A DNA stretch of 64,000 nt from Sphagnum compactum (Eukaryota): the NCBI GenBank assembly GCA_965153455.1, contig OZ234493.1, positions 14,808,213-14,872,212 of the forward strand. The letters run 5' to 3'. The notes beneath the pieces are model-generated. The model made no database searches. It worked only from the letters and a program-made list of their open reading frames with translations, and was not told the DNA's origin. The translations under genes were made by a program, and so were the position numbers. Positions 7,973 to 50,760 of this stretch are shown here, piece by piece (the stretch's first letter is position 1; each line of letters opens with the position of its first letter).

Positions 7973-8134
7973 TTCCTAAGCAATAAACACATGTCTGTGA
8001 TCTGTCATCATTTCTTTTCAGTGTAGCTTTCTCTAGCAGCTTTGCATTGGAAGTTCCTAAGCAATAAACACATGTCTGTGATCTGTCATCATTTCTTTTT
8101 AGTGCAGCTTTCTCTAGCAGCTTTGCATTGGAAG
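7973..8134. repeat. 81-bp tandem duplication
   Basis: TTCCTAAGCAATAAACACATGTCTGTGATCTG at 7973 and 8054. Confidence 0.9.
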
Positions 8135-8606
8135 TGTCATGCAGGAAACTCAGCCTGCCAAAGTAAACCATATGCATGCAAGGACAGTAGTGGGATGTAT
8201 CACCAAAGGATGGCAGGTTTCAGTGTTTAGTCCATTTGAGTGGGTTTGCTTGAGAACAACCAGCCTGTATCAGGCATGATTGACCTGAATGCTCAACCTA
8301 GACACTTGCTGTCTCAAGCCTCTCTCCCTGACAAAGTAATGCATTTCTTGCAACAATTGTATGATAACATGAAACTGTTGAAATTGTATGAAGCTGGGAC
8401 ATCAAGATTTCCTGGTATGTTCTCTATGAAGGGAGGGAGAAGGGAAGGAAATTTTAACTTATGACTTTCTTTTTTTCAAGCTATCTTGGTTTATCAAGAT
8501 CAATGAAAACATAATTTGATCACAAAAACATACAAGAAACAAAGGGTATCAATCAAATGTCCTATCTTGCTTTATCACAAAAAACATACATGACATGAAT
8601 ATTAAA

Positions 8607-10470: not shown

Positions 10471-11503
10471 TCTATCTGTCTGTCTGTGAGGTGTGGTCAT
10501 AACCTTATGCGGAGAATTTGGTGTCTGTGTGTCCGTCTGTGTGGCTGGAGTGGCATAGCCACGGGTTACCCACTAATATAACAAGATACAAATCGGTGCA
10601 CAAGGTATTGAAAATCTACTTGTCATTTCCATCAATTCATGACTTTGGTGTTGAAAAAAAGTTAGTTTAAAAACAAAAGATTAAAAAATAACAACTTTGC
10701 ATAATCCTTACTATGGTCCTTGACATTTTATTTGAAATTGTCAAGACCCTTTATGTACAAAGGATCCTTTCTATACTAGTTTTGAGATCCTCATCAATAG
10801 AATGATTTATGTAAGGGGACCAAAAAATATGGGTTTATGGTGTATAACTTAGTTCATTTGTTTATTGAAGACCTTGTGACAAGTTGTGGTAAACTTTTCA
10901 AAAATCTTTAGATGATAATTAGGTGTGCCACATGTATGGTGGATGATTTAAATGTGAGTTAACTCCTTAGAAGAAGCTTCATAATGCTCACATTAATGTT
11001 TGTAATGTGGCCTAAAAATAGCCACACAAAAAAAAATTATTTAAAGAAAATTTAAAATGAAATTAAAATTCAAACCCAATATTCCCCAATTTGGCAAAGG
11101 CAAGATAATCATTGATATTAAAAAAGGTTCTAACTTATGTAATTTTGTTCTTAAATCTAGACCATCCACATGCAAGCATCAAAAATTAATTTAAAAAAAT
11201 AAATATTGAATAAGTGGGAAGAGTGTTGGAGATAGCTATAATTTTTTGTGTGAATTTTCCCAATAATGCAAAAAAATTGAAATTAAAAATGGAATATTTT
11301 GTCATATATTCTTTTTTTGGGGGGGAAATTGTTTAATATGCTATATGAGGCAAAATAAAAAATTTGAAAGGAAAAAATACTGGAACTTGGATAGTTTTGT
11401 GCAAATAAAATAAAATAAAATAATCTAATATCCCTCAATTTGAGATAGGTAAGAAAAATAATTGCGAACTTGTGTAACTAAGTGTTCTTGAAATCTAGAC
11501 CGT

Positions 11504-11512
11504 CCACGTGGC
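11504..11512 (+). promoter_or_regulatory. G-box/ABRE (CCACGTGGC) about 90-100 bp upstream of the HCAR start codon
   Basis: Perfect CACGTGGC in an otherwise AT-rich upstream region. Confidence 0.45.
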
Positions 11513-11602
11513 AGCATCTGAAAATAACAGTATTGAGTAAGTGGGGAAGAGTGTTGGAGAGTTTTGTCCTCCGAAGACGAAAGGAAGGAAAGCTTTGCGG
11601 CG

Positions 11603-14600
11603 ATGGCGATAGCGATGGCGCTCGGTCCCTTGACGACTATCTCTGGACATCCCAAGTTGGCTTCTGCGCTTTTCGGTTTTGAAGGAGGTGCTTCGCGTCC
11701 TCACTCCCGTGATGGCAAGCTGAATTGTAGGCAACGAGGAGTTTCTACCACAGCACAAGCTGCCAGGCAAAGCGACTATGGAGGTGAGTGGATCTCTTGG
11801 TTTCTTCTCTACGGGAGTAGGGGAATTTTTGCGCTGGTTTGTGTGTGCTTTCTTTTCTTTTCAATACTTAGGCGCTGAGTTTAGAGATCGGTTCGATTCT
11901 TTCATATGGAGTGTAGTCGATGAGCTTTTGTGCGAGATTTTTATCTGTAAGGTGCAATTTGATAGATGTTATTGTTGTTGTTTGGCTTAGCATCAACGAT
12001 TGATTGTCCATTGCGCTAGGGTTTCTGGTCTCCTTTAAGAACTCGCTGGAATTCTGTTGCCAATATTTCATGTGCATTCGAGATGTGTGACTCGGTTTTT
12101 TTTAGGGGATCCCTGAGATATCACTGGATATGTCGAAGTGTGGAAAGCTAGGGTGGCCGAGTTTTTGGGAGCAATTTGAGTAATTAGCTGCCTGGTTGAG
12201 CCATTACAAACTGTGCCTACTTGTTATAAGTTTAGCAATAGGAAAGAGGTGGTAATTCAGGCAGCTTGAATCGGTAGACAAAGTCTTTGTTCTTCCGCAG
12301 ATTTGCAAGAATTTCAGATGAAGACAAATGGTTTGGAAAATGCATTGGTGAAAACCTTAGGGGGTGCATCCTTTTGAGGAAAGGTTCTTGAGGGATTGAG
12401 ATGACTTTTTGAGGTTTATGCATGAGTTTACTGAGTGCAGCTGCTATGGTAGAACCACCTACAGATTGGAGACAAAAGTCAAAGCCTATCAAGCCTGGAT
12501 CCACTTATCCTGCCAAGGATCACTGCAGGCATGTTCTTCAGCTAAAAATCCCTTTGCAATTGAGTTGAAAAAATCCTAGTTTCTGAAATGTGCTCTAGAT
12601 GCTGTGTGCTGCTTTATGACTCTTGGAAGCAGAACTGCAGGGTTAGGCTGTTGTATGGTGCCACTGTTTCTTCCTACATGCTGTGAATGTTATCTGCTTG
12701 TCATCGGGTGCAACTGCAGACTGAAGGGGCAGTGTGGATGGCAGTCAATGTGGATTGTGTGACACATATTACATAGCACATGTGCGAGATGCCTGTGCAT
12801 TTTTAGGAGATGGCATGTCCAGGGTTGAGGTGCCTTCTCCTCCCTTGCTTGTTTAGACTGAATGACGTTGTCATTTTAGAGCTTGTGTCAAGCCTAACCA
12901 ACGACTGAAATGAATGCATTGCCACCATTTTGGCATGTATTCATGGTGTCAAAAGGCACTGGAACCTGAGGTTCATGGACGTGGTCGGGATCCAAATGCA
13001 ATGGACGATCTTTTCTTTGGAGTACATGATGAAATGTTGTATGCTCGCAAAAGTGAGCCTATACAAGGTGCGTGATTGGTTCCAGCATGATCATTCAGAG
13101 GATTCTTTTTGAATGTCCTCAGCCGCCCGATCTGCACCAGCATCTTTGAACATGTATCTCCTCTTTATTGATGCAAATCCATTCAATTTGTTGCATGTCT
13201 GACAGGTGCCCAATGGACTGGTATTGTAACAGCAATTTCTATGGAAATGCTGCGAGCAAACATTGTTGATGCAGTGGTTTGTGTACAAAGGTTGAGCCCT
13301 GTTCCCTATATCACATTTTGGAAAGGAAAAATAAAATTATGTTTGTTCCTAGATGTAGTAGACATAGGAAATGAGAGGCAGAGGAAGACTTGTGATTTGT
13401 TGCTAATATGTTTGAGGCCCTGGTCTTTGCAGTGATCCAAATGACAGGTTCAGCCCTAGACCAGTTCTTGCCAGGTTGAGTTTCCTTTCAACCTTCTCAT
13501 TGATTTGAATAAGTTTTGGTTTCCCTCTCAAGTACAATTGCTAATGAGTTGAAACATTCCCATTGAATTTCGATTGAAGGCCATCAAGTACTTTGAAGCA
13601 CGTTTATTTTAGCAAGGACACCTGTTCTCTGAAGCACAAATTGCTTTCCTCCCTGTATTTGCTACTTGTGGACAAATTTGGATATTGAATCCTGTTTATA
13701 ATATTTCCATCTTGGGCTAACCTCAGCACTTAGAGACAGATTGCATCTTGATCTTGGGTACAGAACAGTTGAGGAAGTTTTGGCTGCGCGAGGGGTGAAG
13801 CCTACTCTTTCACCAAACCTGAATACACTAGCACTAGTTGAGGTAATTGAATCCATTCTGATTCAGTAGGTTGATCATCTGTTTCTGCATTTGTCTAACA
13901 TCATCTATTGCCATGGTGAACCCAACAAGAATGTACTCATTGACCTACCCTCAGGGTGGTTGATTGTCCTTTCTGTAGTTTGTTGGAGAGGTTGTTGGAC
14001 TGAGATGTCAGAGGCTAGGTAGACTTAAGCGGTTGTTGTACTTGCATTGATTGCTTTGTGTTGGGTTGATATCCAATCCATTGATATGTGTGTGGCAAAT
14101 GCTATTGTCTATTTCAGGCTGCAGGGGTGAAACGATTACTCTTTTGTGGTGTAGGGTGTCAAGTGCAAGGTAGGACCCCTTGATTCCTTTGAGTAGCTGC
14201 TATACCTGCTTTCAAATTTCAAAGAAAGTAATCAGCGTCTGGAACCAGCTGGGGTCGTTAAATGATTCAATTGCGTCATGGAATATTTGAAAGTGTATCT
14301 TGGAATGATTTGATTTTGCACATATATGCTGTTTTATGTTCCTGACTCTTGGATATTTGATGCTTCAATTTTTTGTCTGTTTAGCATTACGGAAAGTGGA
14401 AAAGTATTTGGGATTGGAAAAGCTGTATGTTCTTGGCACCAATTGTGGTAAGCACGTCAGCTACAGCAACCAACGTTTCCACTACCTTTAATGCATGATG
14501 TTTTGTAGCACATGTTTGATGTCGCTTTCTGACAGGGAAGTCAAGCTTGAATGTCAGTGCAAGTCAAGCTTGAAGCTCACTCATTGGAAAATGCAAACCT

Positions 14601-16844
14601 TGATTTCTGTGGTCTGATTTGAGAAAGAATGTGGGTCAGTTTGTGATGTAGTCCAAATGGAAGAAGTACATGAATAGCAACCAGAGTCAATGGTTTGTGC
14701 TGTGAAAGGATGATGCTTCATATTCTGAAAGAGTTCATTTCCCTTCTTATGATTTTAAAAAAAAAAACCCTCTTATTGCATGGACAACAAGTCATGTGTA
14801 TTGATGGGGGTCTCAGTGGACAATGGGCCTAGGCAGGGACTTGACAAATTTCTGAAGGCTGCCAGTGATGACCCTGACACAGTACTCCATTATGAGTTTA
14901 TGCAGGACTACAAGGTTTTGCTTGGTCTCTTCATCTTTCAAACTTTGATGAGTGGGAGAGGGAATGAAAGAAACTTCTGAAACTTAAGCATGAGGTATTT
15001 TATGCAGCACGGGTTAATACTATATAAGGACATGCACTGAGTAATATACCATCACTTTGCAGGTGCACCTAAAGCATTTGGACGGCCGTAATGAGGAGGT
15101 AAGGTACTTTACCGAATTCAATTAAGGGATGTTTCTACTGCATCTCTCAAGGATCTTGCAAGCATCTGACAATGCTCATCATTGATATCCAGGTCCCCTA
15201 CTTCTGCTTACCAGCTGATGATTTGACTGATGTGATTGCTCCCTCATGCTACAGGTCACTCTTTTCTTCATGAATTATTTTATGCAGTAACTTGCCACAC
15301 TGATGTTTCTGTGGTAGAATTCATCATATCTGACACACATGGTTACCAGGAATTTGGAAAATAGGCATCTCTGTTACCATATGTGATGAAAGTGAGGCTT
15401 TGAATTTTTTTTTTTGGCATAACATGTTTTCTATCTTGTGGTGGAGGATTGCAGCTGCTTTGACTATACAAATGGCCTGGCAGTAAGCCATCGTTACCCT
15501 TTGTCTCATGTGCATGGAGTCAACAATCTGCATTATCTATTGCTGGCTGTCCCTCATTATGTGCAAGGCAATTTTTGGGCTTGTTCATGATAGAGGCAAT
15601 ATCAAATGACAAGGTGTGTTTGTGGAAACAGGATTTGGTAGTTGGATACATGGGAGTGCCCAAGTATGCAGGGGTGCCCATGACAAAACATCCTCAATAT
15701 ATAACTGTTAGGTGACTAATCAAAAGCCCTCCAGTCTCCCATCTGCTGTTTCAAATGTTTCCTCATGAGGTGGATTTGCATTTTTAACCAACTGATCAGG
15801 CTGTTTTGTCCTTGTCTGGAAAGCCTTTTGAAAGTTTCTTTGCTCAGACTGATGGATGTACTTTGTGTGTGAGTGAACATTGCAGAAACAAGCGAGGAAA
15901 GGAGATGCTGGATCTAGTGCGACCTCTTCTGGACATTACTCCTACCATCAGCACTGTGTGTAACTTCTTCCTTTCAAGCTAGTCTTGGGATTAAATTGAT
16001 ATTTTCATGACATCTTACCATGATTCTACTGGTGCTGTAATCTACAGGGCAACAGAAAACCCTTTGTGATGGAAACTGTGAAAGCAGATGACAAGGCAAA
16101 GCTAGGTACACAACTCTGGCAACAAGATTCTGGCTCAGTCACAGCCACTCCTTCATGATTCAGCAGCTGAATATTCTACTTCTATTTTGACAGAGGGCAT
16201 GTCACTCCCTCATGTATAAGTCAGTGGCTACTTAGCCCCTATTCTGGCAGAGAAATGATGAACACAATGATGTGACTGTGTCCCAGGTCAAGGAAAAACT
16301 CAGCCAGCACCAAGATTTGTGGGAAACTTGATTGCTTTCCTTCTCAATTTGGTGTGTCAATCTTTTCCTTCAAAATCAAAGTTGGAAATCCCTCCCTTTG
16401 GATGTTGTGTTGATGTTGTAGTCAATAACAACAGACTTGGAAATGACCGTGGTTAGTGTCTCCAGGTTGCAGTGCTTCCACATGGTGGACTAGAAACTGA
16501 CAATATTGGGCACTGATTTGTTCAGGTTGGACCCAAGGGCTTGGAGTTTGGACGGTATTCATTGGACTATCATAACATTCGCAACTACCTTCATGTATAC
16601 AGAGCTTGGGGCAAGTCAAGGTAAAATTGCCTATTACATAAAAGTGCTTGAAATATCTGTCAACATTCCTCTGGATGCTGTTGCCTTTCTGGTGCAAGAA
16701 TTCCATACTGATCTTTGAGAGTCAAACTTTGTTCATTGGAGAATCAGGGCAGAGCGGCACATTCCATCTTATGCGAAGAAGTTGGTGGCCATGTATAACG
16801 AGAGGGGGGAAATCGACAAGCTTCTGAAGGATGGGACAAAGTGA
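11603..16844 (+). CDS. HCAR: 7-hydroxymethyl chlorophyll a reductase, chloroplastic (19 exons)
   Basis: Exons 11603-11783, 12441-12528, 12745-12829, 12956-13067, 13206-13290, 13433-13474, 13764-13842, 14118-14169, 14385-14447, 14817-14914, 15063-15098, 15193-15254, 15455-15482, 15632-15711, 15886-15955, 16048-16105, 16287-16351, 16526-16620, 16748-16844. They give a transit peptide followed by YPAKDHCSQCGLCDTYY, GAQWTGIVT, LFCGVGCQVQ, LGTNCVDNG, LHYEFMQDYKV, APSCYSCFDYTN and VGPKGLEF, all HCAR motifs. Confidence 0.96.
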
Positions 16845-19800
16845 TCACATCTCCATGCTATACACAATATTCTGCAGTTATCATCACCACCCCTAGTGTT
16901 GCATGTGAGGTATAATACATAATATCGCATCAAGGTTGTAAAGATCTATCTGGCACTTTCAGTTTCAATTGTCAATGCAGGTAGTGATTGCGCTGGAGAT
17001 TTGCATTTCAAGTTTGAAATAAGGTGATTTCATGTCTGTCAGCCATGAGATCAGATTTTACAAAAAGAATGCACAACATTACATAGCATCTGAGAATTCT
17101 TTCTTGATAAACTTTTTTGATGACTGAACTTGGGTAGTGCCAAACTTTGGATTACCAATTGTTCCATTATTGTTGTTCATTGAAAATTGGATTTGGGAAC
17201 AGCTTTGGACTGTATAATTGTTTACAAGCATCCTTTCTGGATGAATGAAACTGGAGCTTTTGTTCCTCTGAGAACATTCAACTTAGTAACTTTTATTTAT
17301 GCTTTTATTTGATTTTATCATCCTCGAACGCAATATACAATAAATACTTAACACTATATGTGATTTGTGTTGCAAACAATAGTAATGGTTAGTTATAAGA
17401 TGGAAAATGTAATCTTTTGTCTCGACAGATGGATGGTACTCAAAACCCGTTTTCAAAATCAAATATTAGTTTAAATTTAGCTTTGGAATTGCACTATTAC
17501 TCTCCAGAATTATGAATTATGATTACGTGGTAACATAAATTGTGGTTGTAATTTGAATGCAAGATATCTCGATTTGCGATTTGTCCACTAAGTTTATGTT
17601 CATCTAGAATGACAATATTGTATTAATGCATAAGTCCATACATGATTTAATCATGTACTGAAAGTGGTTCTTCTGCAAAAAAATAACAATGTTCAAGTTA
17701 TATTTATTCATAAGATCTCATAATGTTGTTGATGAAGATGTGTTTCTTAACGTGTTTATCTTGAAGTCTCCAATTGTTATGGTTGGGCAATAGTTTCTTG
17801 CACCTTACTTAGAGGTATATATAGAGCTTTTCATCTATATTTGTTGAAAGATCCAATGATGAATTTGGCACTTGATTTTGTTGTTGAAATTGTTTGTGAT
17901 AAAGACAATACTCGATCATAAAGTATCATGGTTTTTTTGTTCATTGTAACATGACAAAATATTGAAATTTCTTTAATATGACATTGTAAATTTCTTGAGT
18001 TGCATGAATGTTTTGGTTTTTTTTTTTTCATTCAACAAAGAATGTGGGATACTAACAAGTGTGGATCTACCAAATAATCTAAAAAACGTAAGTTTACATA
18101 ACAAGTGTGGAGAGACTATTATGACTATAAATTTTCTGTATTAAGATTTGTGACAAGCAATTAATGGTTTGTATTGTGCATTTGTTTTAAGATGAAACGA
18201 TTCTTTTTCAATAAGGGAATGTACTTGGAATTTTTTTGTTTGATAATGCAAAAACTAAATACAAGTGTTCTTTTGGAATGAATTATGGATTAAATTGTGT
18301 ATGTTAAACCATGTTTTGTTACACCAATTGAGTCAAGTGTCAAATTGTTGAGACTTAACTTTTTTGCACAATGTATATTATGTGTTGTAACAAGTGGAAT
18401 ATAGAATTGAATTATCATAATGATATGAAAAAGGTAACTATTTATTTGCAGTTTGGAAAAATGTTTTATTTATTGGGTGTCCACTTTTTGTTTTGTCCAA
18501 GGAATTTTTCATGGACGTGCGAATGTATTATTCTTATGTTAATTTTGATTCACAAGTTTTGAAATTTTTGTCTAGATTATGTGTAATTTAAAAAAATTTA
18601 TATGCACCATTTATGAGACCTTTTGGTATAAAGTATTTTTTTACACATAATATTCAATTAAGATATTTTTAATGTAATAATTCATAGTGTGGGCTAGTTG
18701 TTTGACTTATCATCATAAATAATTTAAAAATGTGGATGATGCTTCAAATATTGAATGCAAATGTAAAAAAATTGCAATGCATTAAAAAATAATTGAAGAA
18801 TGAAAATTTTAAATGGCATTAAAATATAAAAATATAGAAAACTAAAATAATCCTAGTGAAAATGTAAAACTAAATTGTAATTTGAACATTTACAAATTTG
18901 AACAATTGTTTAGCCTTGAATTAGTCACAAATGTTATTATCACTACTATCTTGATGACTATAATCTTATTTGACATAGATATGAAAATTAATTTGACAAT
19001 TTACATTAAACGACATTTGTCGAATGTTAATTAATTTTGGATCATACAATTTAAGGTCAATAAATTGTCAATACCTAACACTTATGTAAATAAGTAAAGA
19101 AAGTAGGCCTATGGAAATAAGTAAATAAGCTTAAGTTAGTTAGTTAGGTTTAAAGTAATCTTATTATACTTTTATTATCTCATTTGTTACAGGTATTATT
19201 AACCATAATAATCAATGTTTAATAATAACAAAATAAAAATAATTTCCTTAAGTATAATAACCCTTGGATACACTTGTACTTAGATGGCCTTAATATGTTC
19301 CATATATATATATATATATATAATGCATGATTGATATATTTTTATAGGATTTAGTTACATAAAATTCTAATACACCCAATATACATATTTGTATTATACA
19401 TTTTTACATCTTAATATGCCCCCAATATTTTTTTAAATACCTTTAATGGACTCTAATATACATGTAGGGCTATAATTAATTTTCGTCACGTTTGCAATTA
19501 ATCGGACATATAAAACCTTTTCTGGAAGTAAACCAAACTAAAAATTGTCTTCTTGGAAGGACAAAGAAAATAATAATCACAAACTAATTGCAATGTAATT
19601 ATAAAAATGACCAAACATAACAAATAGTTGCAAAAATGACCGAAACTAATTACAAATGACATTTCATTCTATAGAGTGGTTACAAAACCATAATTCCTGT
19701 AATGGTTATTTTTCGTTATTTTAAATCTACTTTCCTTTGTTCCCACTATTGCACCATGTGGTCACCTAATGTTTTTGTATTGTGTCATCAATGATTTCAT

Positions 19801-22800
19801 CAAATGCTAACTATTATGTGAATTTATGTTATAATTCCACATTGAAATTAGATGGCCACCCAATGAGCTCAAGTTTTCAAATCCTCAAAAAACAAAAGCA
19901 TGTGCACTTCTTTTTTGACATGTGTGATCACAATTGCTCCCAAATCTAAATTAAGTGGCCACATGAGATTGTCTTTAACATTGAATTTTGTTCTTACAAT
20001 TGAGTTGTGTGGTGATGCGATTTGATCTACTTTTCTGTCACCACAAAACAAGGCCACATTTGTAATTTACTTTTTAATTTACAATTAAATCACGTGGTTG
20101 CTTAGTCTTTTTTTTTCTTTGTTCAAAAGAAACCATAAATTTTAGAAATATCAACACTCCTTTAAATAATTCAAGATTGTAATTCCTATCTTTTGTGCTC
20201 ACAATTATATGTTATGTTGACCCACTTTTTTTTATGCATTTGGTTTATTATTCCTTTGTATCAAAGTTCTTTATCACAATGTTTTGAAGTTCTTTTAAAA
20301 AGTTTCATAGATTTAGGACAAAGGACTTTTGTACATGAATCATAACATGTTTGATCATCAACCTAAAAATAAACAAGGATTTTGCAAATCCAAGAATTTA
20401 TTATAAGACTCAGTCTTCAAATCACATCAAATCAAAATCATCCTTGGGTTTTGTAATGTCTATGAATTCACAACAACTTATGATTTCAAAATCTTTAATT
20501 GTTAAATTTGCAAAATTACACTAGAAAAAATTTCATCGTTTGTAACAAAAAAACAATAACTATAGGTCTTTAATGATTTTATCAATGACTATAATCATAA
20601 ATATAACCATGAATATTACATGTAAAAAGGGGCATAAACATCTTTGGGTGGACCCACCAAGTGTCATGAACACAAAAATTAAGAAAACGACTAATGAAAA
20701 GACAGACCTAAGCGTAAAACGAAACACAAAATATAAAAATCAAAACAAAATCATAAGAGGCTAAAGACAAGAACATGAAGTGTGCAAATGAAAATGCAAA
20801 TTTTTTTAATTGTGATAACACGAAAATGTAAATACAAAAGGTACAAAACAAGGTTATAAAACAAGATTATATTTCAAATTAATGTTGAACAAACTAAAAG
20901 TAATAAAGGGGTCCCACCTTTATTTATATTCCTTTGAGAACTTAAGTTAAAAAAAATTCCATCAAAATTTCCATGTGCCCATTGATTAAATTTTTACAGA
21001 AAAATACTTCCTAACTACAAATGAACTACGAGTTAATTAAGACTAAATTAGAAGTGAACTAGGAATTGATGAATTAAAAATGAATTAAGAATGAACTATT
21101 AATGAACCATGAGTCATAGATGAACATCCATATGAATGAACTCCATTTGTCATGTGAAAATGATGTTCTTACATTCTATGTGATAAAAAAATACTTAACT
21201 TCTTAGAATGTAGATATTTCAATTCAAAAAAAAAAATTTTTTTTTTTGTAGTTGACAACATTGAATGTTCAAAGTTTATGTACATTATGTAGTTTAAGGA
21301 ATATCCTAGAGATTTAAATTTTGTTTCTCTCCATGTTTTTGAATGTCTATTTTCTATTGTTGAAAGTGTTGAAGGGGATTTCTTTTTATACTTACATGCA
21401 TTTTATTTTTGTGCATGAAAATAAAAAACAACCTTCAAATCTTTCAAAAATTACTAATCTATGCCTATGTAGGCAATCTTTTTCAAGCCCCTATTGATAG
21501 AAAACTTTTCACTTTCTAACTATGGATGTAACATTGCCTTTAAGTGCAAAGTGATGATTGACTAGTAATTAATATAAAAAATTGCATGTTTGTTGTTTAC
21601 CACCACTTTGTACTAAATCATAAACAATAATTTGTGAACTAAATGATTTGTGCATGTGTGAGCCTCATGTGCAATCCACCTAAAAGAACATGGTGATAGT
21701 GAGGAGCTATGGATAACCAAAAAAAAAAGAGGGCGTTTATTAAAACTCTTTAAAAGATGCAAAAGAAAGTTCCCAAATTGCAAATGGAAGATGTTCTTTG
21801 ACTAAGGAACAAGAAAGGTGACATGTATATGCAACATTGCAAAAAAATCTTAAATGAGCTCACTTTGATGGGGGTCATTGAGTAGTAGAAATTGAATGCC
21901 AACAACAAGCAAATGTTCTTCCAACTTGTGTTGCAATAAAGATTGTGTGATGGTGAAACTTAATAGACATGGGTTTCACCCAAATGAAAATATGCATGCC
22001 ACTCTAGAAAAGCCAAGCATGATTTTCACATCTATGGAACATGTTGCTTAATGGAATCTCAAATAAATCTCAAGCTCTTTCTAAACAAAAACTTGAAGGT
22101 GATGATGTCTTTGAATGTGTGTTCTCCTTTGATTCAAAAGAAGAATATTTTATAATACAACAAATTTTTGAACATTCTAGCAATAAATTGTACTTATTAA
22201 TCTATTGCCTACAATGAAGTTGGAGCTCTTACTAATGTTAAAAAATGAAGTTGTAGGAGTCAAGTTTCTTGTATGAATTTGTAAGTCTTATTGAAGAATA
22301 AAATTGTAGACTTCTACTCTTATGGTTTAGTGGTTTAGTTTTTTAGGTACTTGATTTTGTTGTGTTGGTAGATTGTACTTGCAAAGGTTGTTTTAGTACT
22401 TCAATGAAGAATGTTGCAATTGTTGGTTTAATGCGAGAAGAAAATTCCATTTTTTTTGGGAAGTATATTGGTCTTTCAAGTACTTGCATGCCTTATGAAA
22501 TAATATTCTAGTGGTATTCCCATTTTATCATTTTGGTCCTATCTAGAAGTCTTGTTTCAAAATACTGATAGTCAAGGTTCTTGTTGTTTGTTTTGTAGTA
22601 TTTGTGTACTTCATGCATTTTTGCATTTGCCTATGATATGTTTGGTCGTATCTACTTTTTGTTTACCATAATACCATGGCAAGTTGAACATTTTGATGCT
22701 GAATAACTATTTCATTTTCAAGATTCCATGTATAAGTTTTTTTTCCAAAAATCATAAAAAATTCCATATTTTCCTTCACAAAATTTCCTTCTTTAAAAAA

Positions 22801-42800: not shown

Positions 42801-44833
42801 TTCTCAACTCTACTCATTGCTTATGTGATTATGCCTAACACAGACTTGTAGTTTTTAGAGCCCACCACCAAATGCATCATCCTAGTTCCCTTATTGTGCG
42901 AGTTAAAATCACACACACAAAAGCCCTTGCATCAACTAAACCATGTATTTGATGTTCATCAATCTCAACAGAGGTGAATGCTTCTCCCTTTTCCTTGTGA
43001 TTCAAACATGTTACCTCCTTGTGCAACTTACTAGGTTTCCCCACAATTTGCACTTTTGTTTGCCTTGTTTCATTATTTTTCCTTCTTCCTAGTTTGACCA
43101 AACCCTCCAAGTACTCCAATTCTTCAGGAATTGTTATTATCATCTCCATTGGGGAAAATGAGATCCTCCCCTTCATGAAATGCATAAGAATTTTTGACCT
43201 CATAATTGTACCTTGATTTGTAACTTAGTTTTAATTCTTAAATATATATTTTTAATATGTCTCCTTTTTCTTAGGAGGGGTGTGACCTGGATCTGTGTTA
43301 GCATAAACTTTTGATGACTAAGCCCTAACCAGAAGAAGTGATGAGATAGCCCTAACAAATGAAGTACTAGGTTGATGGATGTATTGGCAAAAAATGCCAA
43401 GAGAGAGGATGGTTGGCGATCATTCATGTTAAAGGGGTTGCATTTTGCTTCTTGATGTCTTCACTATTTTTTGTTTTTTTCTTGTTTGCAGGTTATGGAA
43501 TTTGGTGTGTTGTTTTTCATGGAATGTCAGCACCCAAATGTCGCAACCCTACTTTGAGAGAGTGTGAGGATGAGACTTACACTCCCGAAATGGGGACTTG
43601 GGAGTCCTCCGGGACTCCCAAAATTTCAGAGTTCGATTGCAGGGGTCAAAACACCTCACATTGGGGTGTTCTTTATATCATTGGAAAGCTATCCAAGTGT
43701 AAATGTCAAAAATGGGCTTGCATGGGCCATTTGAACATCTGCAGCACAAGTTATGGCAAAAAGAAGGGCCGGGAGTCAAATTGGCAATTTGACTCCCGGC
43801 CACTAAAAGTCAGGAATCGACCCGACCCCAGTGCGTGCAGGTGTAGTGCGACATACCGTTGGAAAGCTCTCGAGGAGAGCTACAAGTTTGCTTTAGACCT
43901 CATCTCAATCGAAGGTCTGAGCAAGGAGTTATGATCTTTCAAAGTCCCGAGAGTCCAAACCTGGACAATTTTGGGACTCCTCCTTGGGAGTCTCGGGACA
44001 AAAAGCCATTCGGATGTGCATACCGCAGAGAGGCACAGAGAATATTATATGGGGGAAGGTGGTGGCTTCCCTCGAGTCTGGGCCATGGTGAGTCTTGTGA
44101 GTCCAGAGTTGCCCATGGCTTGTCCTAACACTAAAGGTGCTCCAGAAAGTGAACTAACCAACTTGTTGGTTGGTTTAATGCAGGTTCGAGTAAGTAACTA
44201 AAGCTTGTAACTCTTCTTAGTCCCATCCCGGAGCTTCAACACGCCCCACTACCCCTTTTAGTGTTGAGGGCTGGGAGCGTGCCCCGAGTTCCTCACCATT
44301 CCGTTGTTTGAGTAACTCAGACCCATCTTGAATCTAACTAGGAACTTGGGAGCGCGTCGTCTTTGCTATTTTTTGTTTTTTTTGTTGTTCGCAAGTTATA
44401 GAATTTGGTGTGTTGTTCTTCATGGAATGTCAACACCCAAATTAGAAGCTGGTGGTGGAGTGTTGCTTGCTGGATTTTCTTTGTTGGTGTGATGTAGGAT
44501 TTGCTAGAGGGAATAAAGAAGGCACTTGGTGAAGGAACAAGACAAATACCTAGCGATGAGAAAAGCTAAACACTCTGGTTTTCTCGCCTCCACATGTGAC
44601 ACATGGCTATTTTCTCACGAATGCCATGGCTGAGTTGCAGGAAAATTAGGGTTTCCACTATTTGGGGGCCCCAACAACATGTGAGCCCCAAAATAGGTCA
44701 GAAGGTATTGGGATTTGTCAAGCCCTAAGGGTCTTTTTGTGTGAGTAAAGCCCTAGGCATGGGACGATCTGAAAAATAAGGGGCCTAGGATGAGGTGGTA
44801 ATCAAGTCTGGCCCCATATTGGGGGAATGTACA
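39850..44833 (-). mobile_element. Degenerate, 3'-truncated Ty3/gypsy LTR retrotransposon
   Basis: Order on the minus strand: putative 5' LTR 44833-44595 (TGTACA...TCACA) with a PBS-like TGGAGGCG after it, gag-like region, protease (GLVDARAFVCVI), RT (RFCGDY..LNQQT; GLFEWLVMPFGLKNA; VFVDDINI), RNase H (FILDVD; HKPLEW; HTNVDTLSR), integrase start (YWW). Many stops and frameshifts. Confidence 0.88.
43539..44359 (+). mobile_element. ~820-bp solo-LTR-like insertion nested in the gypsy element
   Basis: GC-richer, less decayed block starting TGTCGCAACCC and ending GGGAGCGCGTCG (a TG...CA-like end with a substitution). Flanked by an ~81-bp direct duplication. Confidence 0.65.
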
Positions 44834-45082
44834 ATGTACCCCCCTGTGAGGCCTTAACCATTGTAAAGCAAAAGGTGAACTTTATACGACGATAGAATTG
44901 TAGAAACAATGTCAAACTGGCTAAATTTGCAGCAATATTCCTTCCATCAGAAGTGCTTTCCAATTTGCAATTCAGGAAATTTCTTCAATGCACCTTGGTT
45001 GCAATGAGCTCACATTACGCCCCCTTTCCAGAAGCCGGAACTCCAAAAATCATAATCCTCTTAAAAGACTGATCAATATCAA

Positions 45083-47335
45083 TCAATCCTTGGTTGAGTT
45101 CTGGGGGCAGGTTTTCAGGAAATTGAGGATGATGCGGTTATATTCCTTGGGATTCTCAATTTGAGGTATGTGCCCACAATTCTTCATCACAACCAACTTT
45201 GTTCTGCTTGTACCTAAGTGTCTGCACAGTTAATGCCTAAGTTAATGCCCTGGTCGCAAGGGCACTCCTGAAATATGTGCCCTTCCTTGGCTGTGTGCAG
45301 AATATCAAAAGGGCCATACTGGTACATGACTCCAACCTCAAGCCAAATTGTTAAAAAATGTTTCAACCATAGGCCAAAGTGCTCAAAAAATTCTAATCCT
45401 AGGCCAAAGTGTCCAAAAAAGATTTTAACATTGAACCACATTCTCTAAATATATTCCAACTTTGAGCCAATATGCATATGCAAAATTTAGTTTTGTCTTG
45501 GGGTAAACTTTCTTGACATGAGGTCTAACAATAAGCCAATATACGTGTATTATTATTATTTTAAATGTGTATTTGCATCAAATACACAAAAATTCTTGGT
45601 CCAATGGCTTAGGGCTATTACAATTTGACCCAAGGTCATTGTCTTAAGGGCATAGGACAATTGTCTTAAGGGTGTAGGACATTTACCTTAAGGGCGTGGG
45701 ACATTTGTTTTGAGAATGGATGACATTTGGCTTAAGAGAGCAAGACATTTGTCCTAGGGGTGTGAAACATTTGTCTTAAGGGTGCCAAAACATTTGTCCT
45801 AATGTTGGTCTACCCAACATACTGACTTTCATGTGAGAAGAGCACCCGGGATGGTGGGCAGTGACAAAAAAAAGTTTTTTCACCTTCATAATATGCTCGA
45901 ACTTACTGGACAAAAGAAATTCTCAAACTGCCCAAAATTTCTAAAACATGAGAACATTTTCAGAATGCCCCAAAAATTTGGGCATAAATGAAACTATCTT
46001 CAACATTAATAAGGTGCCGGTTATTATTGAGCAAAATGAGAATTCCCAAAATGCCAATAAATTTCAAGCATCCAGATTTTTCAGAGTGCCCAATATATTT
46101 TGGGCAGAAATGATAAAAATCAGCATTTATAACTTTCTAAAGCAAGCTAAAATTTCCAAAATTGCCTGAAATTTTTTCAAGCATCTTAAAAAAAAAATCT
46201 CATGAATATTTCCGAGCATAGGATTTGTTGATTTCCCAAATTCTTCAGCAAAAATGAAAAAAAATCAACCTATATAATCTGCCCAAAATATATTGGGCAG
46301 AATAAAGATTCTCAAACTAATGAATATTTTTCAAGCATTTTGAAAAATGTTTTTCAGGAATTTTTTAGAATGCCCAATTTAAAACCTAATTGTAAGCCTC
46401 AGTGCTAAATTTTTGTTACTCTTAAGTCAAAACAATAAAAAGATTCTAACCCAAGCCAAAATGGCAATTCTTTAAAATCCTAAGTCAAAATAATAAAAAG
46501 ATTCTAATCCTTAGGCCTAAATAGATTTTAACCTTTAGGCCCAAATAGATTTATCTTTAGGCCTAAAAAGATTTTAAACTTAAACCAAAATATTAAAAAC
46601 CTTCTAACCTTAAACTTAACTATTAAAAGAATTCCAACCTTAGGCTTAAACATTAAAAATATTTTAATCCTAAACCAAAGTATTGATATATTTTTTAACT
46701 ATAGGTTAAATTATTTTTAAAATAATTAACCTTAAGTCATAATTCTCACAGGAGCAGGGCGAGCCTTTTCGGCTGGAGTGGTCCTCTCTCAGCACTCTTG
46801 TTTTCAATTTCACTGAAACTTTTAGGGTTTAAAATAGCTTCCAAGTTGTCTGCACATCCTCTCATTGTGGATTCTTCTTTTTCACCCAAATTCTCATATA
46901 GGAGTGGTATTTTGTTTTCTTAGGATTAAAAAATTGAAAATAAGAAAATCCTGATGTACATGATGATGATGACTTTAAGAAAGTTCAAAGTCTTGAAACA
47001 ACCAATTTTCTCAATTGGATTTTTCAGGTTTGTGATAATGGATGATGATGAGTTAAACTCACTTGGAGCATATCGTGAAGAATGAAATTCAGGAGCCACA
47101 TTGCTTTGTATGTCACATTTGCAAGGAAGACCTTCATTCCCTTGACTGAAGATGGCAACATGAGCTCCGATATGCTGGACAGATTGCTCCTGGCAAGAAG
47201 CTCGTCCAAGCTAGTCGACACGAAATCCACCCCTGAGCTAGAAATCACCACTTTCTTCACAAAATTTGGATACATCTCTGCAATTCGAAATGCCACCATG
47301 CCACCATAGTTGGTTCCCACCAATTGTATATGGTT
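45083..47335 (-). pseudogene. Alpha/beta-hydrolase fragments (two exons)
   Basis: Exon 47335-47063 reads NHIQLVGTNYGGMVAFRIAEMYP...HDMLQ|gtgagt, with the nucleophile motif GxSYGG changed to GTNYGG. Last exon 45221-45083 reads RHLGTSRTKLVVMKNCGHIPQIENPKEYNRIILNFL...*, with the catalytic His motif. N-terminal and middle exons were not found. Confidence 0.8.
45638..45801. repeat. ~22-bp minisatellite, about 7 copies
   Basis: CATTTGTCTTAAGGGTGTAGGA-like units. Confidence 0.8.
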
Positions 47336-47616
47336 CTGAAAACCAATTTCGCCAGAGGAAAAAAAACTTTGAAATTTTGTTAACAAAAAACTTGAATTGA
47401 ATTTTCTTTAAATTAAAAAAAAAAAATGATTATGAAATGACCCACCTTTGTGATGAAGTTGTTTGGAAACACTAGAAAATCCTCACACTGAAATCCTGAC
47501 AAAAGCCTCAGAACTTCAAACCTTTCATAAAGTACACGCAAAACATGTTGAGAAAGAATTTCCAAGTTCTCTAATGGCATCTTCCAAGAATTCCAGGCAA
47601 GAATTGCCTTCTAGAA

Positions 47617-47773
47617 ACAAAATAGCAAGCCTATTGTCCACATCCGGAATGTCCATACCGGTAGACTCGGATCATCCGTATTGGGAACCGTTAGTCTCAC
47701 TTATTCCACTGGCGACTCGTCCACGTTCCCACCCTGTTCCAATGCTTTCAATCCCTCTAGTCCCTCCCCCGGA
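47617..47773 (-). pseudogene. Oligopeptide transporter (OPT family) N-terminal fragment
   Basis: My translation: [37 protein letters not shown], the conserved OPT motif SPxEEVRLTV..TDDP..P..TFRMW. Stop at 47701-47703, and the sequence is truncated after the motif. Confidence 0.85.
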
Positions 47774-47902
47774 CTGCACAAAACCAAAACCCACATCAAT
47801 CCATCTTCTTCTTCTTCTTCTTCTTGGCATCCCCCACTTTCCACAACAATCACAACAAAGGTGCAAATGGGTGTCACTAGCAGCAGTCAAGGAAAGACAT
47901 AC

Positions 47903-48535
47903 CCAGACTGGCAGCAGCAATGGGGTCCCGGTCAAATCGATCAAATATCACATCTACTGGTTGGCCAAGCCCTGTCTCTATGATTCTCACAACTGTCTCT
48001 GACTCAAATGGCGGCACTTGATCCTTCTCACAGGAAAAACAAACATCCAACCTTCAGCAAAAATAGAAAATTATTCCTTAAATCTCTCCTCCCTGATGAA
48101 GAGGAAGAAAAAGATCATGAAGAGAAAGATCATGTGGAGCAGTTGCAAAAAGACCATGAAGAGAACAACCATGCAGAGCTGCAGAGAAAAGCCTGAAGAG
48201 AAAGATCATGCAGAGCTGCAGAAAGATTGTGAAGAGAAAGATCATGCAGAGCTGCAGAAAGATTGTGAAGAGAAAGATGGTCATGCAGGGAAGCAGAAAA
48301 GATCATGGAGAGAGATCATGAGTTGCTGCTGCTACTACTGCAAAAAGATTGCAATTTGTACTACTGACCTACAGTTCTGCCAATTCATCGACATACTCCT
48401 GAGCAAGAATGTCAACACGGGTGGAGAATTGTTGCCCAATTTTGATGAAAGTTGGCCCCAATCGCAGCAACCCTTCCTTCACCCATTTCGCAAGCCTCTT
48501 CCTCTTCTCCTTTTTCTTCAGCTCTGTCATACCAC
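47903..48535 (-). pseudogene. ABC1K8: ABC1 atypical kinase (ABC1K8/OSA1-like) fragment: two consecutive exons and their intron
   Basis: Exon 48535-48369 reads GGMTELKKKEKRKRLAKWVKEGLLRLGPTFIKIGQQFSTRVDILAQEYVDELAEL*, with TAG where Q is expected. Exon 48023-47903 reads [41 protein letters not shown]|gt. Splice sites are canonical. Confidence 0.85.
48095..48320. repeat. 36-bp tandem repeats inside the captured ABC1K intron
   Basis: GAAGAGAAAGATCATGCAGAGCTGCAGAAAGATTGT repeated, with degenerate copies. Confidence 0.8.
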
Positions 48536-48983
48536 CTGCAAAACAACCTACAACCAAACTCTCCTCCTCCACCAATCTGCTGTTGCTGCTGTTGCTAATC
48601 CAAACTCTCTTCCTCCACCAATCTGTTGCTAATCCAAACTTCTCCTCCTCCACCAATCTGTTGCTGCTGCTGTTAATCCAAACTTCTCCTCCTCCACCAA
48701 TCTGCTGTTGCTGCCATTCGTCCTCCTCCTCTTCCATCATCTTCTTCTTCCGGGATGAAGAACTTGGATGGATGGATGACGCGACGGATGGATGCTGCTG
48801 CTGTTGCTAATCCAAACTTCTCCTCTTCCACCAATCTGCTGCTGCCATTCGTCCTCCTCCTCTTCCATCATCTTCTTCTTCCGGGATGAAGAACTTGGAT
48901 GGATGGATGACGGGACGGATGGATGGAAAGGACGACCGAACACCACCGCAAGAGGACAAAACCAAGGATATTATATAAGTAGA

Positions 48984-49775
48984 CTAGTGGGTACCCGTGA
49001 CCTTCAGACACTGTGAAGTCCCCCAAAAGTGAGTGGGGGGGGGGGGGGGGGGCGGGAGGGGCGAGCAAAAAGGGACAAAATTATCAAATATATTTGGTTG
49101 GTTTGAGTGTGTAGTCAAAGATATAGAAGCTTGATTACAGTTGTTTACTTCATATCCGGCTTTATAGCCAGTTTTGGCACAATCTTCTTGAGGAAGGTCG
49201 TCACATTTTTCTATGGAAGATTCCCACTGTGGCTACAAACAAAAAATCTTAGAAAAATAAAATAAAAAACAACACTGCTAGGAACGACCTGGGGTCGGTC
49301 CCTCCTGGCAACTACCTCCGTACTATGAGATAAATTGCCACATGATTGTCTCCTCCATTCCATGGATGGATGACAGGACCCCCACCCCCAATAGAAAAAA
49401 GAAAAAATTTCTCCCTTTCCCCCTCTCCCCAAAACCCAAAAAAGGAAAAAATTGGCTGCACTGATTGCATACCGAGCCTTCCTCAGTGCCTGCCTGAAAT
49501 TTTTATTATGGGCCAATACCCCTTCATAACTGGATGGATACCTATTGTGCTATAAATAGGGCAGAATGGGCAATTCCCTGAAACATTGGAGTTTTGCAAT
49601 TTAAGAAGGGCCCGCGCCCTCCCCCCCCCTCTTTGCCTTGGATGGATGAAGGGACGAATGGATGACGGGATGGACGACAGAACGGATGGATGATGGGATG
49701 GATGACGGGACGGATGGATGGAAAGGACGACCACCAACCACAACAGGACAAAACCTAAAATATTATATAAGTAGA
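48984..49775 (-). mobile_element. Short non-autonomous Helitron (792 bp)
   Basis: Minus strand: A|TCTACTTATATAATATTTTAGG at 49775. 3' end CTTCA-CAGTGTC-TGAAG hairpin then GTCACGGGTACCCACTAG|T (CTAG 48984-48987). Confidence 0.8.
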
Positions 49776-50145
49776 TATATACAGGTCTCTGTTGTTTGTA
49801 CCAAACATCTGGAAATCTCAATTCATATGACTGAAATATAGAAAGAGATACTCAGCCTGTTGCGGCGGTGGCTCCACCCATAAACCTGAATCCTTAACAT
49901 CAGGAGTAATCTGAACCGCACGCTGGGGATGGCGTGTCACTTAAGGAAAATATGTTTGAAATTTCCACACTGAGCCACAACAGACGTCCTCTTCTGGTAG
50001 CAGCTGTGTAGCTTGACTTTCAGTTCATGGAGCCCTAAAACCTTTCACTGAAAATTATGTATCAAAGGGGCAACCTTCCCAACCACAATTTCTGGCTCTT
50101 GGATATTTTTCATTATCCCCGTAGAGAGGGGAGATTATTGACACA

Positions 50146-50577
50146 TCTATCTATGAAGGAAGGTAGTTTGTTTTGTGGTTATGAGATCCACCAAACCGGG
50201 ATGCTTCAGATTGTGTTCTTGATGTCTTTGGGAAGCTCTCGACGAGGAGGGGTGCATGCGCTTGGTTCCATGACATTTGGACTTGCTGTGCAATAGTTCT
50301 TGAATAATGAATGATTTCTGCACTGAAAATTAAATTAAATCAGAGCTGAAAATTTCAGAGGAATTGGAATGTGCCTTTGGTGTTGTTGGAAAGAAAGATC
50401 TTGACGAGCAGGATTTAATGAATTTTTTTGGGTAAGATTTGGATTCAGAATGTGGGAGATATTGGTTTTTAAGTGATTTCGGATGAAAATTGAAATAAAT
50501 TCCAAAAAACCAGGTTTTGGAAGGAAGAATCAGTTGTGGATGTGATAACACTTGCGCCAATGGCACAGCCACACTAG
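50146..50577 (+). mobile_element. Short non-autonomous Helitron
   Basis: A|TCTATCTATGAAGG 5' end; 3' TGGC-ACA-GCCA hairpin then CACTAG|T. Confidence 0.7.
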
Positions 50578-50760
50578 TCCTCATGATGGGAGAGATTTGT
50601 TGCAAAGTGACCTGCAACATTCATTTGAATGTGTTTGGGCCATCCTTATAATAGTGCACCTCAATTTTTACAAAGAGGAGACACTCCTGTCTTTTTGGCT
50701 TGCACCATAGGCTTTGCCCTCAATTCATGGGACATTAAAAGGCACTAATAGCAGTGCCTC

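What the first reader, a model, noticed from the sequence alone, without database searches (positions are those of the whole stretch)
47063..48983. Helitron-associated mosaic of three unrelated host genes (ABC1K8 + OPT + alpha/beta hydrolase)
Seen in sequence: directly downstream of a Helitron 5' end, and on the same strand, lie two ABC1K8 exons with their intron, an OPT transporter N-terminal piece and a hydrolase exon, all within ~1.5 kb and mostly with intact splice signals. Established: Helitrons capture co-oriented, intron-containing gene fragments (well known in maize). Inference: serial DNA-level capture (exon shuffling) in a bryophyte-type genome, and a possible source of chimeric transcripts or siRNAs against the parent genes. 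By my frame count the ABC1K-to-OPT splice is out of frame and both pieces carry stops, so a fusion protein is unlikely.
Basis: partly seen in the sequence, partly recalled or inferred. Interest (0 to 1): 0.8.

Follow-up and report, generated by a model that had tools for sequence, protein, structure and literature searches.

The report
Peat-moss Helitron carrying host gene fragments
A rolling-circle transposon (Helitron) in a Sphagnum-like moss genome has picked up broken pieces of three host genes one after another, a process well known in maize but little described in mosses.

Summary
On the minus strand, directly 3' of a Helitron 5' end (TC at 48983), lie two ABC1K8 exons with their intron, an OPT transporter N-terminal piece and part of an alpha/beta-hydrolase exon. 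All are co-oriented and decayed: TAG in ABC1K8, TAA in OPT, catalytic Ser to Asn in the hydrolase.

The Helitron reading is strongly supported.
- The same 5' end plus the same hydrolase pieces occur in moss contigs from metagenomes. Seven distinct 5' flanks there all end in host A before TC.
- In 9 loci these parts lie upstream of a RepHel ORF (Pfam Helitron_like_N and PIF1).
- All 20 Helitron-borne hydrolase copies that cover the motif share Ser to Asn. All 7 parent-gene loci keep Ser. This fits one old capture.
- The OPT and ABC1K8 pieces are absent from all 62 fetched loci. Run contigs show forms with OPT but without ABC1K8. Capture was therefore stepwise.

Corrections to the finding:
- The element runs to about 44886 and includes a second hydrolase piece (45086-45241).
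- It has no recognisable 3' end in the window.
- It sits head-to-tail behind a 792-bp high-copy Helitron (48984-49775).

This is a new member of a known kind, of moderate interest. Mobility of the ABC1K8-bearing form, chimeric transcripts and siRNAs remain untested.

The parts
48984..49775 (-). Element A: a 792-bp non-autonomous Helitron. 5' TC at 49775 after host ...TATATA; 3' CTAG at 48987-48984. Head-to-tail with element B.
   Evidence: Motif hits. Summed contig depth is 4000-20000 against about 35-110 in the flanks. Contigs (31 in X9, 45 in X10) start at 48983 with unrelated AT-rich left flanks. Copies at 90-92% in L014 and L025.
48897..48983 (-). Element B: 5' terminus (TC at 48983-48982) and the conserved 5' region.
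   Evidence: 78-96% identical to the 5' ends of 14 loci that also hold the hydrolase piece. Shares 80 bp with the 5' end of A.
48554..48925 (-). Tandem repeats (periods 35, 44, 78 and 131 bp), partly duplicating the Helitron 5' region. They lie between the 5' end and ABC1K8.
48372..48542 (-). ABC1K8 exon fragment (parent residues 135-191). It ends in TAG (48372-48374) where the parent has Gln.
   Evidence: 96.5% identity to P0008; angiosperm hits are named ABC1K8; the 982-nt RNA contig has 812 nt upstream of this point that are not in the window.
48024..48371 (-). Retained ABC1K8 intron (GT..AG) with a 36-bp tandem repeat at 48110-48320.
   Evidence: An RNA contig joins the two exons across it (joint 48025/48376).
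47901..48023 (-). ABC1K8 next exon (parent residues about 193-233). Its donor gtatgt and about 50 bp of the next intron follow, down to 47851.
   Evidence: Pfam ABC1 6.5e-10; 92.9% identity.
47617..47850 (-). OPT 5' piece. The coding match (parent residues 52-106) is at 47781-47617, with an in-frame TAA at 47701-47703. In copies without ABC1K8, 47850 is joined to the Helitron 5' region.
   Evidence: 89-92% identity to P0128. table 5c: joint 47850/48930 in X3 and X9.
47482..47622 (-). Exon-like stretch of unknown origin; possibly a fourth captured fragment.
   Evidence: A 534-nt RNA contig matches only this stretch, with 8 differences in 141 nt. The ORF finds only two short unnamed proteins, P0182 and P0183. 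No Pfam family.
47060..47366 (-). Hydrolase piece 1 (parent residues 133-228; nucleophile motif GTNYGG instead of GTSYGG). Family-wide homology starts at 47366.
46858..47059 (-). Intron DNA captured with piece 1 (parent homology down to 46960), followed by sequence shared by the family.
   Evidence: (P0003 reads into the same intron).
45346..46857 (-). AT-rich, repeat-rich 1.5-kb block. It is present in some family copies (L006-8, L015-17, L027, L033) and absent from the RepHel-bearing type.
44886..45345 (-). Hydrolase piece 2 (last exon, residues 276-327, at 45241-45086, with an internal stop) plus 3' UTR. Homology to the Helitron family ends at about 44886.

Best explanation
Window 44886-49775 (minus strand) holds two canonical (HLE1-type) Helitrons joined head to tail, in a Sphagnum-like moss genome.

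The upstream one (A, 48984-49775) is a short, high-copy, non-autonomous element. The downstream one (B, from 48983) is a derivative of an autonomous family without RepHel and truncated at its 3' side. That family long ago captured two pieces of an alpha/beta-hydrolase gene at the DNA level and carries them between its 5' end and its RepHel gene.

In the lineage leading to the window, the stretch just behind the 5' terminal 90 bp was replaced by an OPT 5' fragment. Later an ABC1K8 exon-intron-exon fragment, with local tandem duplications, was added between the 5' region and OPT.

Shown here: the identity of the fragments, the Helitron termini, the RepHel-bearing relatives, the single origin of the hydrolase cargo, and forms with fewer cargo pieces.

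Inferred:
- the order hydrolase, then OPT, then ABC1K8;
- that cargo entered by repair or template switching inside the element rather than by 3' read-through;
- that the pieces are non-coding passengers, which at most yield chimeric or aberrant transcripts.
For: Fragment identities.

5' ends: TC follows a host A at 7 of the 10 distinct flanks examined. The other 3 follow the CTAG or TTAG end of another Helitron. The motif occurs twice in the window against 0.08 expected.

The 3' end of A is a true repeat boundary. 31 contigs (X9) and 45 contigs (X10) begin at 48983 with unrelated AT-rich flanks. The same CTAG|TC junction is in L014, and TTAG|TC in L015-17.

RepHel: 9 loci (L013, L018, L021-25, L028, L029) have the hydrolase pieces followed by a RepHel ORF. 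For L028, Pfam gives Helitron_like_N 6.2e-36 and PIF1 3e-68.

Single capture of the hydrolase:
- 20 of 20 Helitron-type rows that cover the motif read GTNYGG, and 7 of 7 parent rows read GTSYGG. Six rows do not cover it.
- The parent rows form one starred branch (98/93) in the tree.
- 31 Helitron-type loci all lack residues 1-132. The 7 parent-type loci have residues 17-228 in one exon.

Stepwise cargo:
- 0 of 62 loci match 47367-48896, apart from tandem-repeat matches in L031.
- Contigs of X3 and X9 join 47850 to 48930 (table 5c).
- 15 distinct X3 contigs cover OPT position 47662 (table 3).
- The Sphagnum gene model P0006 (129 aa) reads Helitron repeat, then ABC1K8 exon 1, exon 2, then out-of-frame OPT-upstream sequence.
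- P0125 carries the same OPT variant between Helitron-repeat translations.

Parents are not neighbours: 0 ABC1K8 or OPT hits in any locus, including the 7 parent hydrolase loci with up to 6 kb on each side.
Against: - Element B has no family 3' end in the window. The 22-nt 3' motif occurs once, at A, even with 3 mismatches allowed. B diverges from its relatives at 44886 while they run on together. B as it stands is therefore probably immobile.
- The ABC1K8 part has near-flank depth in the runs (X9 62-107 against about 35-70). It was never seen at a second flank, so it may have been added after insertion at this one locus.
- The predicted 3' subterminal hairpin is no more stable than shuffled sequence (z from +1.1 to -0.9).
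- Depth from contigs is not a copy number, as the tool itself warns.
- No genomic DNA of the ABC1K8 and OPT parents was seen, so the junctions could not be examined.
- The metagenome loci come from unnamed mosses and are partly redundant assemblies of the same sites.
Confidence: 0.85

Rival explanations
1. Only the hydrolase cargo (and perhaps OPT) is truly Helitron-borne. The ABC1K8 fragment and the neighbouring tandem duplications were pasted into an already inserted, dead element at this one locus by double-strand-break repair. That part was never mobile.
For: The ABC1K8 bins have depth close to single-copy flanks (X9 62-107; X10 89-261), while the OPT and hydrolase bins are several-fold higher. 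No second flank was seen for the ABC1K8-bearing form. Element B lacks a 3' end. Tandem duplications at the junction are typical of repair synthesis.
Against: The same ABC1K8-to-OPT arrangement is annotated in another Sphagnum species (P0006) and is covered by contigs of two organisms (X3 record 19 spans 47850). These could, however, be orthologous sites. X3 depth there (270-500) is above its flank value (about 70-90).
Confidence: 0.3
2. The region is a decayed segmental duplication or a rearranged gene cluster. The Helitron-like ends are coincidental neighbours.
For: The fragments are decayed and adjacent. Sphagnum genomes are said to contain duplicated regions (recalled, not tested).
Against: The hydrolase pieces travel with the TC end and RepHel at many distinct flanks. 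Breakpoints are identical in all copies and one lies inside an exon. Ser to Asn is shared. The parent hydrolase loci have no ABC1K8 or OPT nearby.
Confidence: 0.03
3. The mosaic is a functional new gene made by exon shuffling, producing a chimeric protein or a regulatory RNA under selection.
For: Public annotations call short ORFs on such copies (P0006 at 129 aa; P0125 at 321 aa; P0001 with 24 member sequences). RNA-library contigs overlap parts of the element.
Against: In the window there are stops in the ABC1K8 and OPT pieces, the catalytic Ser is lost, and the hydrolase N-terminus and two of its exons are missing. Copies accumulate stops: 1-3 in 9 of the 33 rows. The RNA contigs come from metatranscriptomes that may contain DNA, and no cross-fragment splice was seen.
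Confidence: 0.05

Closest known systems
Gene-fragment-carrying Helitrons of maize (and rice, Arabidopsis, bats)
   Same: 5' TC and 3' CTAG ends, insertion after a host A, several co-oriented intron-containing fragments of unlinked genes, non-autonomous derivatives, and mis-annotated chimeric gene models. Background comes from the abstracts listed (PMC2575219, PMC4528327) and passages of PMC11417382.
   Different: The host is a Sphagnum-like moss. The oldest cargo (hydrolase) sits in RepHel-bearing, potentially autonomous copies upstream of RepHel. The newer cargo entered just behind the 5' terminal 90 bp, not at the 3' end.
Head-to-tail adjacent Helitrons (maize r1 region, Du et al. 2008, PMC2267711; Myotis arrays cited there)
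   Same: The CTAG of one element abuts the TC of the next, giving a G/T junction instead of A/T (passages read). The window has this at 48984/48983, and L014 has an array of three.
   Different: Here the same junction recurs in several loci (L014; L015-17 with only a 38-nt 3' stub). The junction itself was therefore either copied or formed repeatedly.
Helitron-like elements annotated in Sphagnum by HELIANO (HelenSM92, an HLE2 with a captured GIY-YIG domain; PMC11417382)
   Same: Same host genus, a RepHel element, and captured host-like sequence (passages read).
   Different: That family is a Helentron/HLE2 type with terminal inverted repeats and TT target sites. The present family has TC...CTAG ends and A|T targets (HLE1 type) and carries decayed gene fragments, not a domain fused to the element's own protein.

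Membership tests
Canonical Helitron (HLE1) | 5' terminus TC | tested here: met
   TC at 48983 and 49775. The same start is present in 14 loci.
Canonical Helitron (HLE1) | Insertion between host A and T without target-site duplication | tested here: met
   A precedes TC at 7 of 7 distinct host flanks. Three further flanks are the 3' end of another Helitron. At the 3' side, contig matches start at 48983, which is T on the element strand. No empty site was recovered.
Canonical Helitron (HLE1) | 3' terminus CTRR | tested here: met
   This holds for element A and its relatives only. CTAG at 48987-48984, CTAG twice in L014, and TTAG in L015-17. It is not met for element B: no 3' end was found in the window.
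Canonical Helitron (HLE1) | GC-rich hairpin about 10-20 nt before the 3' end | tested here: inconclusive
   A 5-bp stem (CTTCA...TGAAG) lies 17 nt before CTAG, with one compensated copy (CTTCG...CGAAG) in L014. Folding energy is not better than shuffles (z from +1.1 to -0.9).
Canonical Helitron (HLE1) | Autonomous relatives encode a RepHel protein (HUH Rep plus PIF1-like helicase) | tested here: met
   L028:4012-7602 scores Helitron_like_N 6.2e-36 and PIF1 3e-68. Homologous ORFs lie in 8 further loci downstream of the hydrolase pieces. There is none in the window.
Gene-capturing Helitron | Cargo is a partial copy of a host gene whose intact parent lies elsewhere | tested here: met
   Hydrolase: the parent loci have all exons, and the copies have only residues 133-228 and 276-327. 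ABC1K8 and OPT: full-length Sphagnum proteins exist, and the parent mRNA contig has 812 nt that are absent here. The genomic positions of these two parents were not seen.
Gene-capturing Helitron | Cargo is mobilised with the element (the same cargo at several insertion sites) | tested here: met
   This holds for the hydrolase cargo, which sits behind 5' ends at 7 or more distinct flanks. For OPT it is probable: many distinct contigs and the gene model P0125. For ABC1K8 it is not shown.

The most novel reading that the evidence does not exclude
Peat mosses may host a recently active Helitron lineage in which new host-gene cargo enters repeatedly at one place, just behind the 5' terminal 90 bp and upstream of older cargo and RepHel. 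Entry would be by break repair or template switching, which leaves tandem duplications, and not by 3' read-through. The nested forms (hydrolase only; OPT plus hydrolase; ABC1K8 plus OPT plus hydrolase) spread over closely related Sphagnum species would then be a natural time series of Helitron gene capture. Some copies would already be transcribed and annotated as chimeric genes.
Probability: 0.3. Interest if true: 0.55.

Novelty: new member of a known kind. Interest (0 to 1): 0.4.

Why it matters
Helitron gene capture has been worked out mostly in maize and a few other angiosperms and animals.

This family offers several things together: a potentially autonomous, RepHel-bearing form that already carries host cargo; short high-copy derivatives; head-to-tail arrays; and three successive cargo states in closely related species. 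That combination gives material to test how capture happens, whether by internal repair or by end bypass.

Practically, it also explains odd short chimeric gene models in public Sphagnum annotations (for example the 129-aa and 321-aa models found here). These should be flagged as transposon-borne pseudogene fragments.

My searches for Helitron with Physcomitrella and gene capture, with Sphagnum, and with bryophyte and gene fragments returned no paper whose listed title or abstract, or the passages I read, describes gene-fragment capture by canonical Helitrons in mosses. The library is limited to open-access papers, and most of the returned papers were not opened.

Tried and rejected
- Whole-genome search: not possible, because no genome is held.
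- Cluster look-up of the parent and chimeric proteins: the database was switched off. I therefore could not confirm from accessions that the parents lie on different chromosomes, nor whether P0001 and P0002 are transcripts.
- 3' end of element B: the family 3' motif with up to 3 mismatches hits only A. Self-BLAST of 46000-50500 found only the shared 5' 80 bp and local tandem repeats. RepHel tblastn on the window gave nothing.
- The repeat at 43539-44283 follows truncated RepHel copies in L024 and L025. I considered it as a possible 3' part of the family, but found no CTRR end and dropped the idea.
- ORF 47413-47610: the Atlas gave only weak LRR-like and M49-like leads at low recognition. The representative search found two short unnamed proteins. 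No Pfam family. Its origin stays unknown.
- ORFs of the alternative 5' cargo regions of the metagenome copies showed only glycine-rich and low-complexity reading frames. I did not pursue them.
- The joint 46939/50145 (skips 3205 bp; X3 and X9; side 25) was considered as an empty site and rejected. Position 46939 is internal to the family sequence, and 50145 is the edge of another very high-copy repeat.
- RNA contigs of one metatranscriptome run overlap 45743-47114, 47482-47622, 48214-48537 and 49074-49492. I do not count them as proof of transcription of this copy. No RNA cover was seen on 47156-47339.
Full report
**What is in the sequence.**

- ABC1K8: P0008 residues 135-191 align at 48542-48372 (96.5%). 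Residues 192-233 align at 48026-47901 (92.9%). The two are separated by a GT..AG intron that holds a 36-bp tandem repeat. Exon 2 scores Pfam ABC1 at 6.5e-10.
- The best named angiosperm hits are 'ACTIVITY OF BC1 COMPLEX KINASE 8'.
- OPT: P0128 residues 52-106 align at 47781-47617 (89%).
- Alpha/beta-hydrolase: P0004 residues 133-228 align at 47347-47060 (89.6%).
- Decay: TAG replaces the Gln codon at the end of ABC1K8 exon 1. TAA interrupts OPT. The hydrolase nucleophile motif reads GTNYGG instead of GTSYGG.

The host is a Sphagnum-like moss, judged from the best hits.

- The hydrolase piece starts inside a large parent exon that encodes residues 17-228 in one block in the parent loci.
- A second hydrolase piece, the last exon (residues 276-327), lies at 45241-45086.
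- The two small exons between these pieces are absent.
- A 141-bp stretch (47482-47622) is matched at 94% by the middle of a 534-nt RNA contig. Its ORF finds only two short unnamed proteins. It may be a fourth fragment.

**Is it a Helitron?**

The motif TCTACTTATATAATAT occurs twice in the window (48983 and 49775, minus strand; 0.08 expected). The two copies share 80 bp that end exactly at TC.

A protein-guided scan of metagenome contigs with a read-through ORF of this family (P0001) returned 62 loci.
- Seven of them are the parent hydrolase gene.
- 31 carry only the same partial hydrolase pieces.
- Fourteen of the 31 also hold the 5' end. Among the 10 distinct 5' flanks examined (8 from these loci, 2 from the window's own elements A and B), 7 end in a host A directly before TC. 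Three are the CTAG or TTAG end of another Helitron.
- In nine loci the hydrolase pieces are followed, about 1 kb downstream and on the same strand, by a long ORF. In L028 that ORF scores Helitron_like_N 6.2e-36 and PIF1 3e-68.

The family is therefore a canonical Helitron, and RepHel-bearing copies already carry the hydrolase cargo. The window has no RepHel.

**Element A and the head-to-tail junction.**

The G before TC at 48983 is the last base of CTAG. Positions 48984-49775 form a 792-bp element with its own A|TC 5' junction and a CTAG 3' end.

When contigs of three DNA runs were laid on the region, summed depth over 48628-49731 was 4000-20000, against about 35-110 in the flanks. 31 contigs (X9) and 45 contigs (X10) begin at 48983 with unrelated AT-rich sequence to the left. 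This is the signature of a true, high-copy terminus.

L014 shows an array: 3' end, TC...CTAG, then TC... again. Such G/T junctions are described for maize and bats (PMC2267711, passages read).

The expected 3' hairpin is only a 5-bp stem and folds no better than shuffled sequence.

**One capture of the hydrolase, later captures of OPT and ABC1K8.**

Evidence for a single hydrolase capture:
- All 20 Helitron-type rows that cover the motif read GTNYGG, and all 7 parent rows read GTSYGG. Six rows do not cover it.
- The parent rows form one supported branch (98/93).
- The breakpoints are the same in all copies.

Evidence that OPT and ABC1K8 came later:
- In every metagenome copy, the stretch between the 5' 90 bp and position 47366 is 0.86-1.95 kb of unrelated sequence.
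- None of the 62 loci matches 47367-48896, apart from tandem-repeat matches in L031.
- In the runs closest to the window, contigs join 47850 to 48930 through 11 other letters (X3 and X9, table 5c). That is the Helitron 5' region followed by OPT without ABC1K8.
- Fifteen distinct X3 contigs cover OPT position 47662 (table 3).
- The OPT and hydrolase bins have several-fold higher summed depth than the ABC1K8 bins. The tool warns that this is no copy number.

Two public Sphagnum gene models match these forms.
- P0006 (129 aa) reads Helitron repeat, ABC1K8 exon 1, exon 2, then eight out-of-frame residues from the sequence upstream of OPT.
- P0125 (321 aa) contains the same diverged OPT variant between translations of the Helitron 5' repeat.

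The order hydrolase, then OPT, then ABC1K8 is the simplest reading. It is an inference.

**DNA-level capture and unlinked parents.**
- The ABC1K8 intron is retained.
- An RNA contig joins the two exons across the intron. A 982-nt RNA contig has 812 nt upstream of 48537 that are not in the window. The parent mRNA is therefore longer and spliced.
- 106 bp of hydrolase intron came along with piece 1.
- No ABC1K8 or OPT match occurs in any locus, including the parent hydrolase loci with up to 6 kb on each side.

**What remains open.**
- Element B diverges from its relatives at about 44886, while they continue together for 3 kb into RepHel. No 3' end of B was found. The window copy is a truncated, probably immobile derivative.
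- The ABC1K8-bearing form was not seen at a second flank. It may be a local addition to a dead element (rival, 0.3).
- The 1.5-kb AT-rich block at 45346-46857 is present in some copies and absent from others. Its nature is unknown.
- Transcription of this copy, cross-fragment splicing and siRNAs were not testable. The RNA contigs come from a metatranscriptome and may include DNA.
- I could not see genomic DNA of the ABC1K8 and OPT parents, and I could not look up cluster members.

**Comparison and verdict.**

This is Helitron gene capture as known from maize and others (abstracts listed; passages of PMC11417382), here in a peat-moss genome. Two features are useful: cargo-bearing, potentially autonomous copies, and nested cargo states.

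Helitron-like elements with captured domains have already been noted in Sphagnum, but of the HLE2 type. Mosses are cited as Helitron hosts in PMC4683698.

My three literature searches returned no paper whose listed title or abstract, or the passages I read, describes canonical-Helitron gene-fragment capture in mosses. Most of the returned papers were not opened, and no supplements were consulted.

It is a new member of a known kind, with interest about 0.4.

Noticed in passing
window 8880-9914 (+): An uninterrupted 344-aa ORF with RPA70-type domains (REPA_OB_2 8.7e-30, Rep_fac-A_C 3.6e-18, OB-fold 5.1e-13). Plant Helitrons often carry RPA-like genes, but no RepHel is in the window. It may simply be a host RPA1 exon.
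   Followed up: partly
window 50145-50650: A very high-copy repeat of about 500 bp. Summed contig depth is 30000-95000 in three DNA runs. The left edge is sharp at 50143-50145, with many unrelated AT-rich flanks. This looks like a SINE or MITE-type element.
   Followed up: no
window 45801-46091: A repeat of about 290 bp found at 90-98% identity in more than 20 of the fetched loci (L039-L062). In each case it lies about 57 bp after a 16-28-residue match to the hydrolase-derived query. It may be another mobile element that carries a tiny hydrolase-like piece.
   Followed up: no
window 43535-44360: A dispersed repeat, 72-79% identical to stretches in many loci, that overlaps ORF 43371-43934 (+). 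In L024 and L025 it follows a truncated RepHel and precedes an A-like Helitron copy.
   Followed up: partly
window 47097-47104 (equivalent site in loci L009, L013-L018, L020-L030, L034, L035): Most metagenome copies carry an extra 600-850 bp at this point inside the hydrolase exon, and the flanking alignments overlap by 8 bp. This looks like a nested insertion with an 8-bp target duplication that marks a subfamily. The window copy lacks it.
   Followed up: partly
window 48110-48320: The 36-bp tandem repeat inside the ABC1K8 intron. Contigs of X3 and X9 join 48180/48183 directly to 48837 in the Helitron 5' repeats. Similar letters also appear between Helitron 5' pieces in other contigs (tables 5 and 5c). 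This repeat may belong to the Helitron family rather than to the parent intron.
   Followed up: no
window 46939 / 50145: Single contigs in X3 and X9, at near single-copy depth, join these two points and skip 3205 bp. The shorter side is only 25 nt. Unexplained.
   Followed up: partly
window 45743-46768 (-) and 48883-48921: A 1103-nt RNA-library contig covers 46768 to 45743. It then continues through 37 other letters into sequence that matches the Helitron 5' region. In some other copy this AT-rich block therefore abuts a Helitron 5' region.
   Followed up: no
proteins P0006, P0125, P0001, P0002 (public gene models): Short chimeric or read-through ORFs derived from copies of this Helitron family are present in public protein sets, some under Sphagnum species names. 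They are probably annotation artefacts of transposon cargo.
   Followed up: partly
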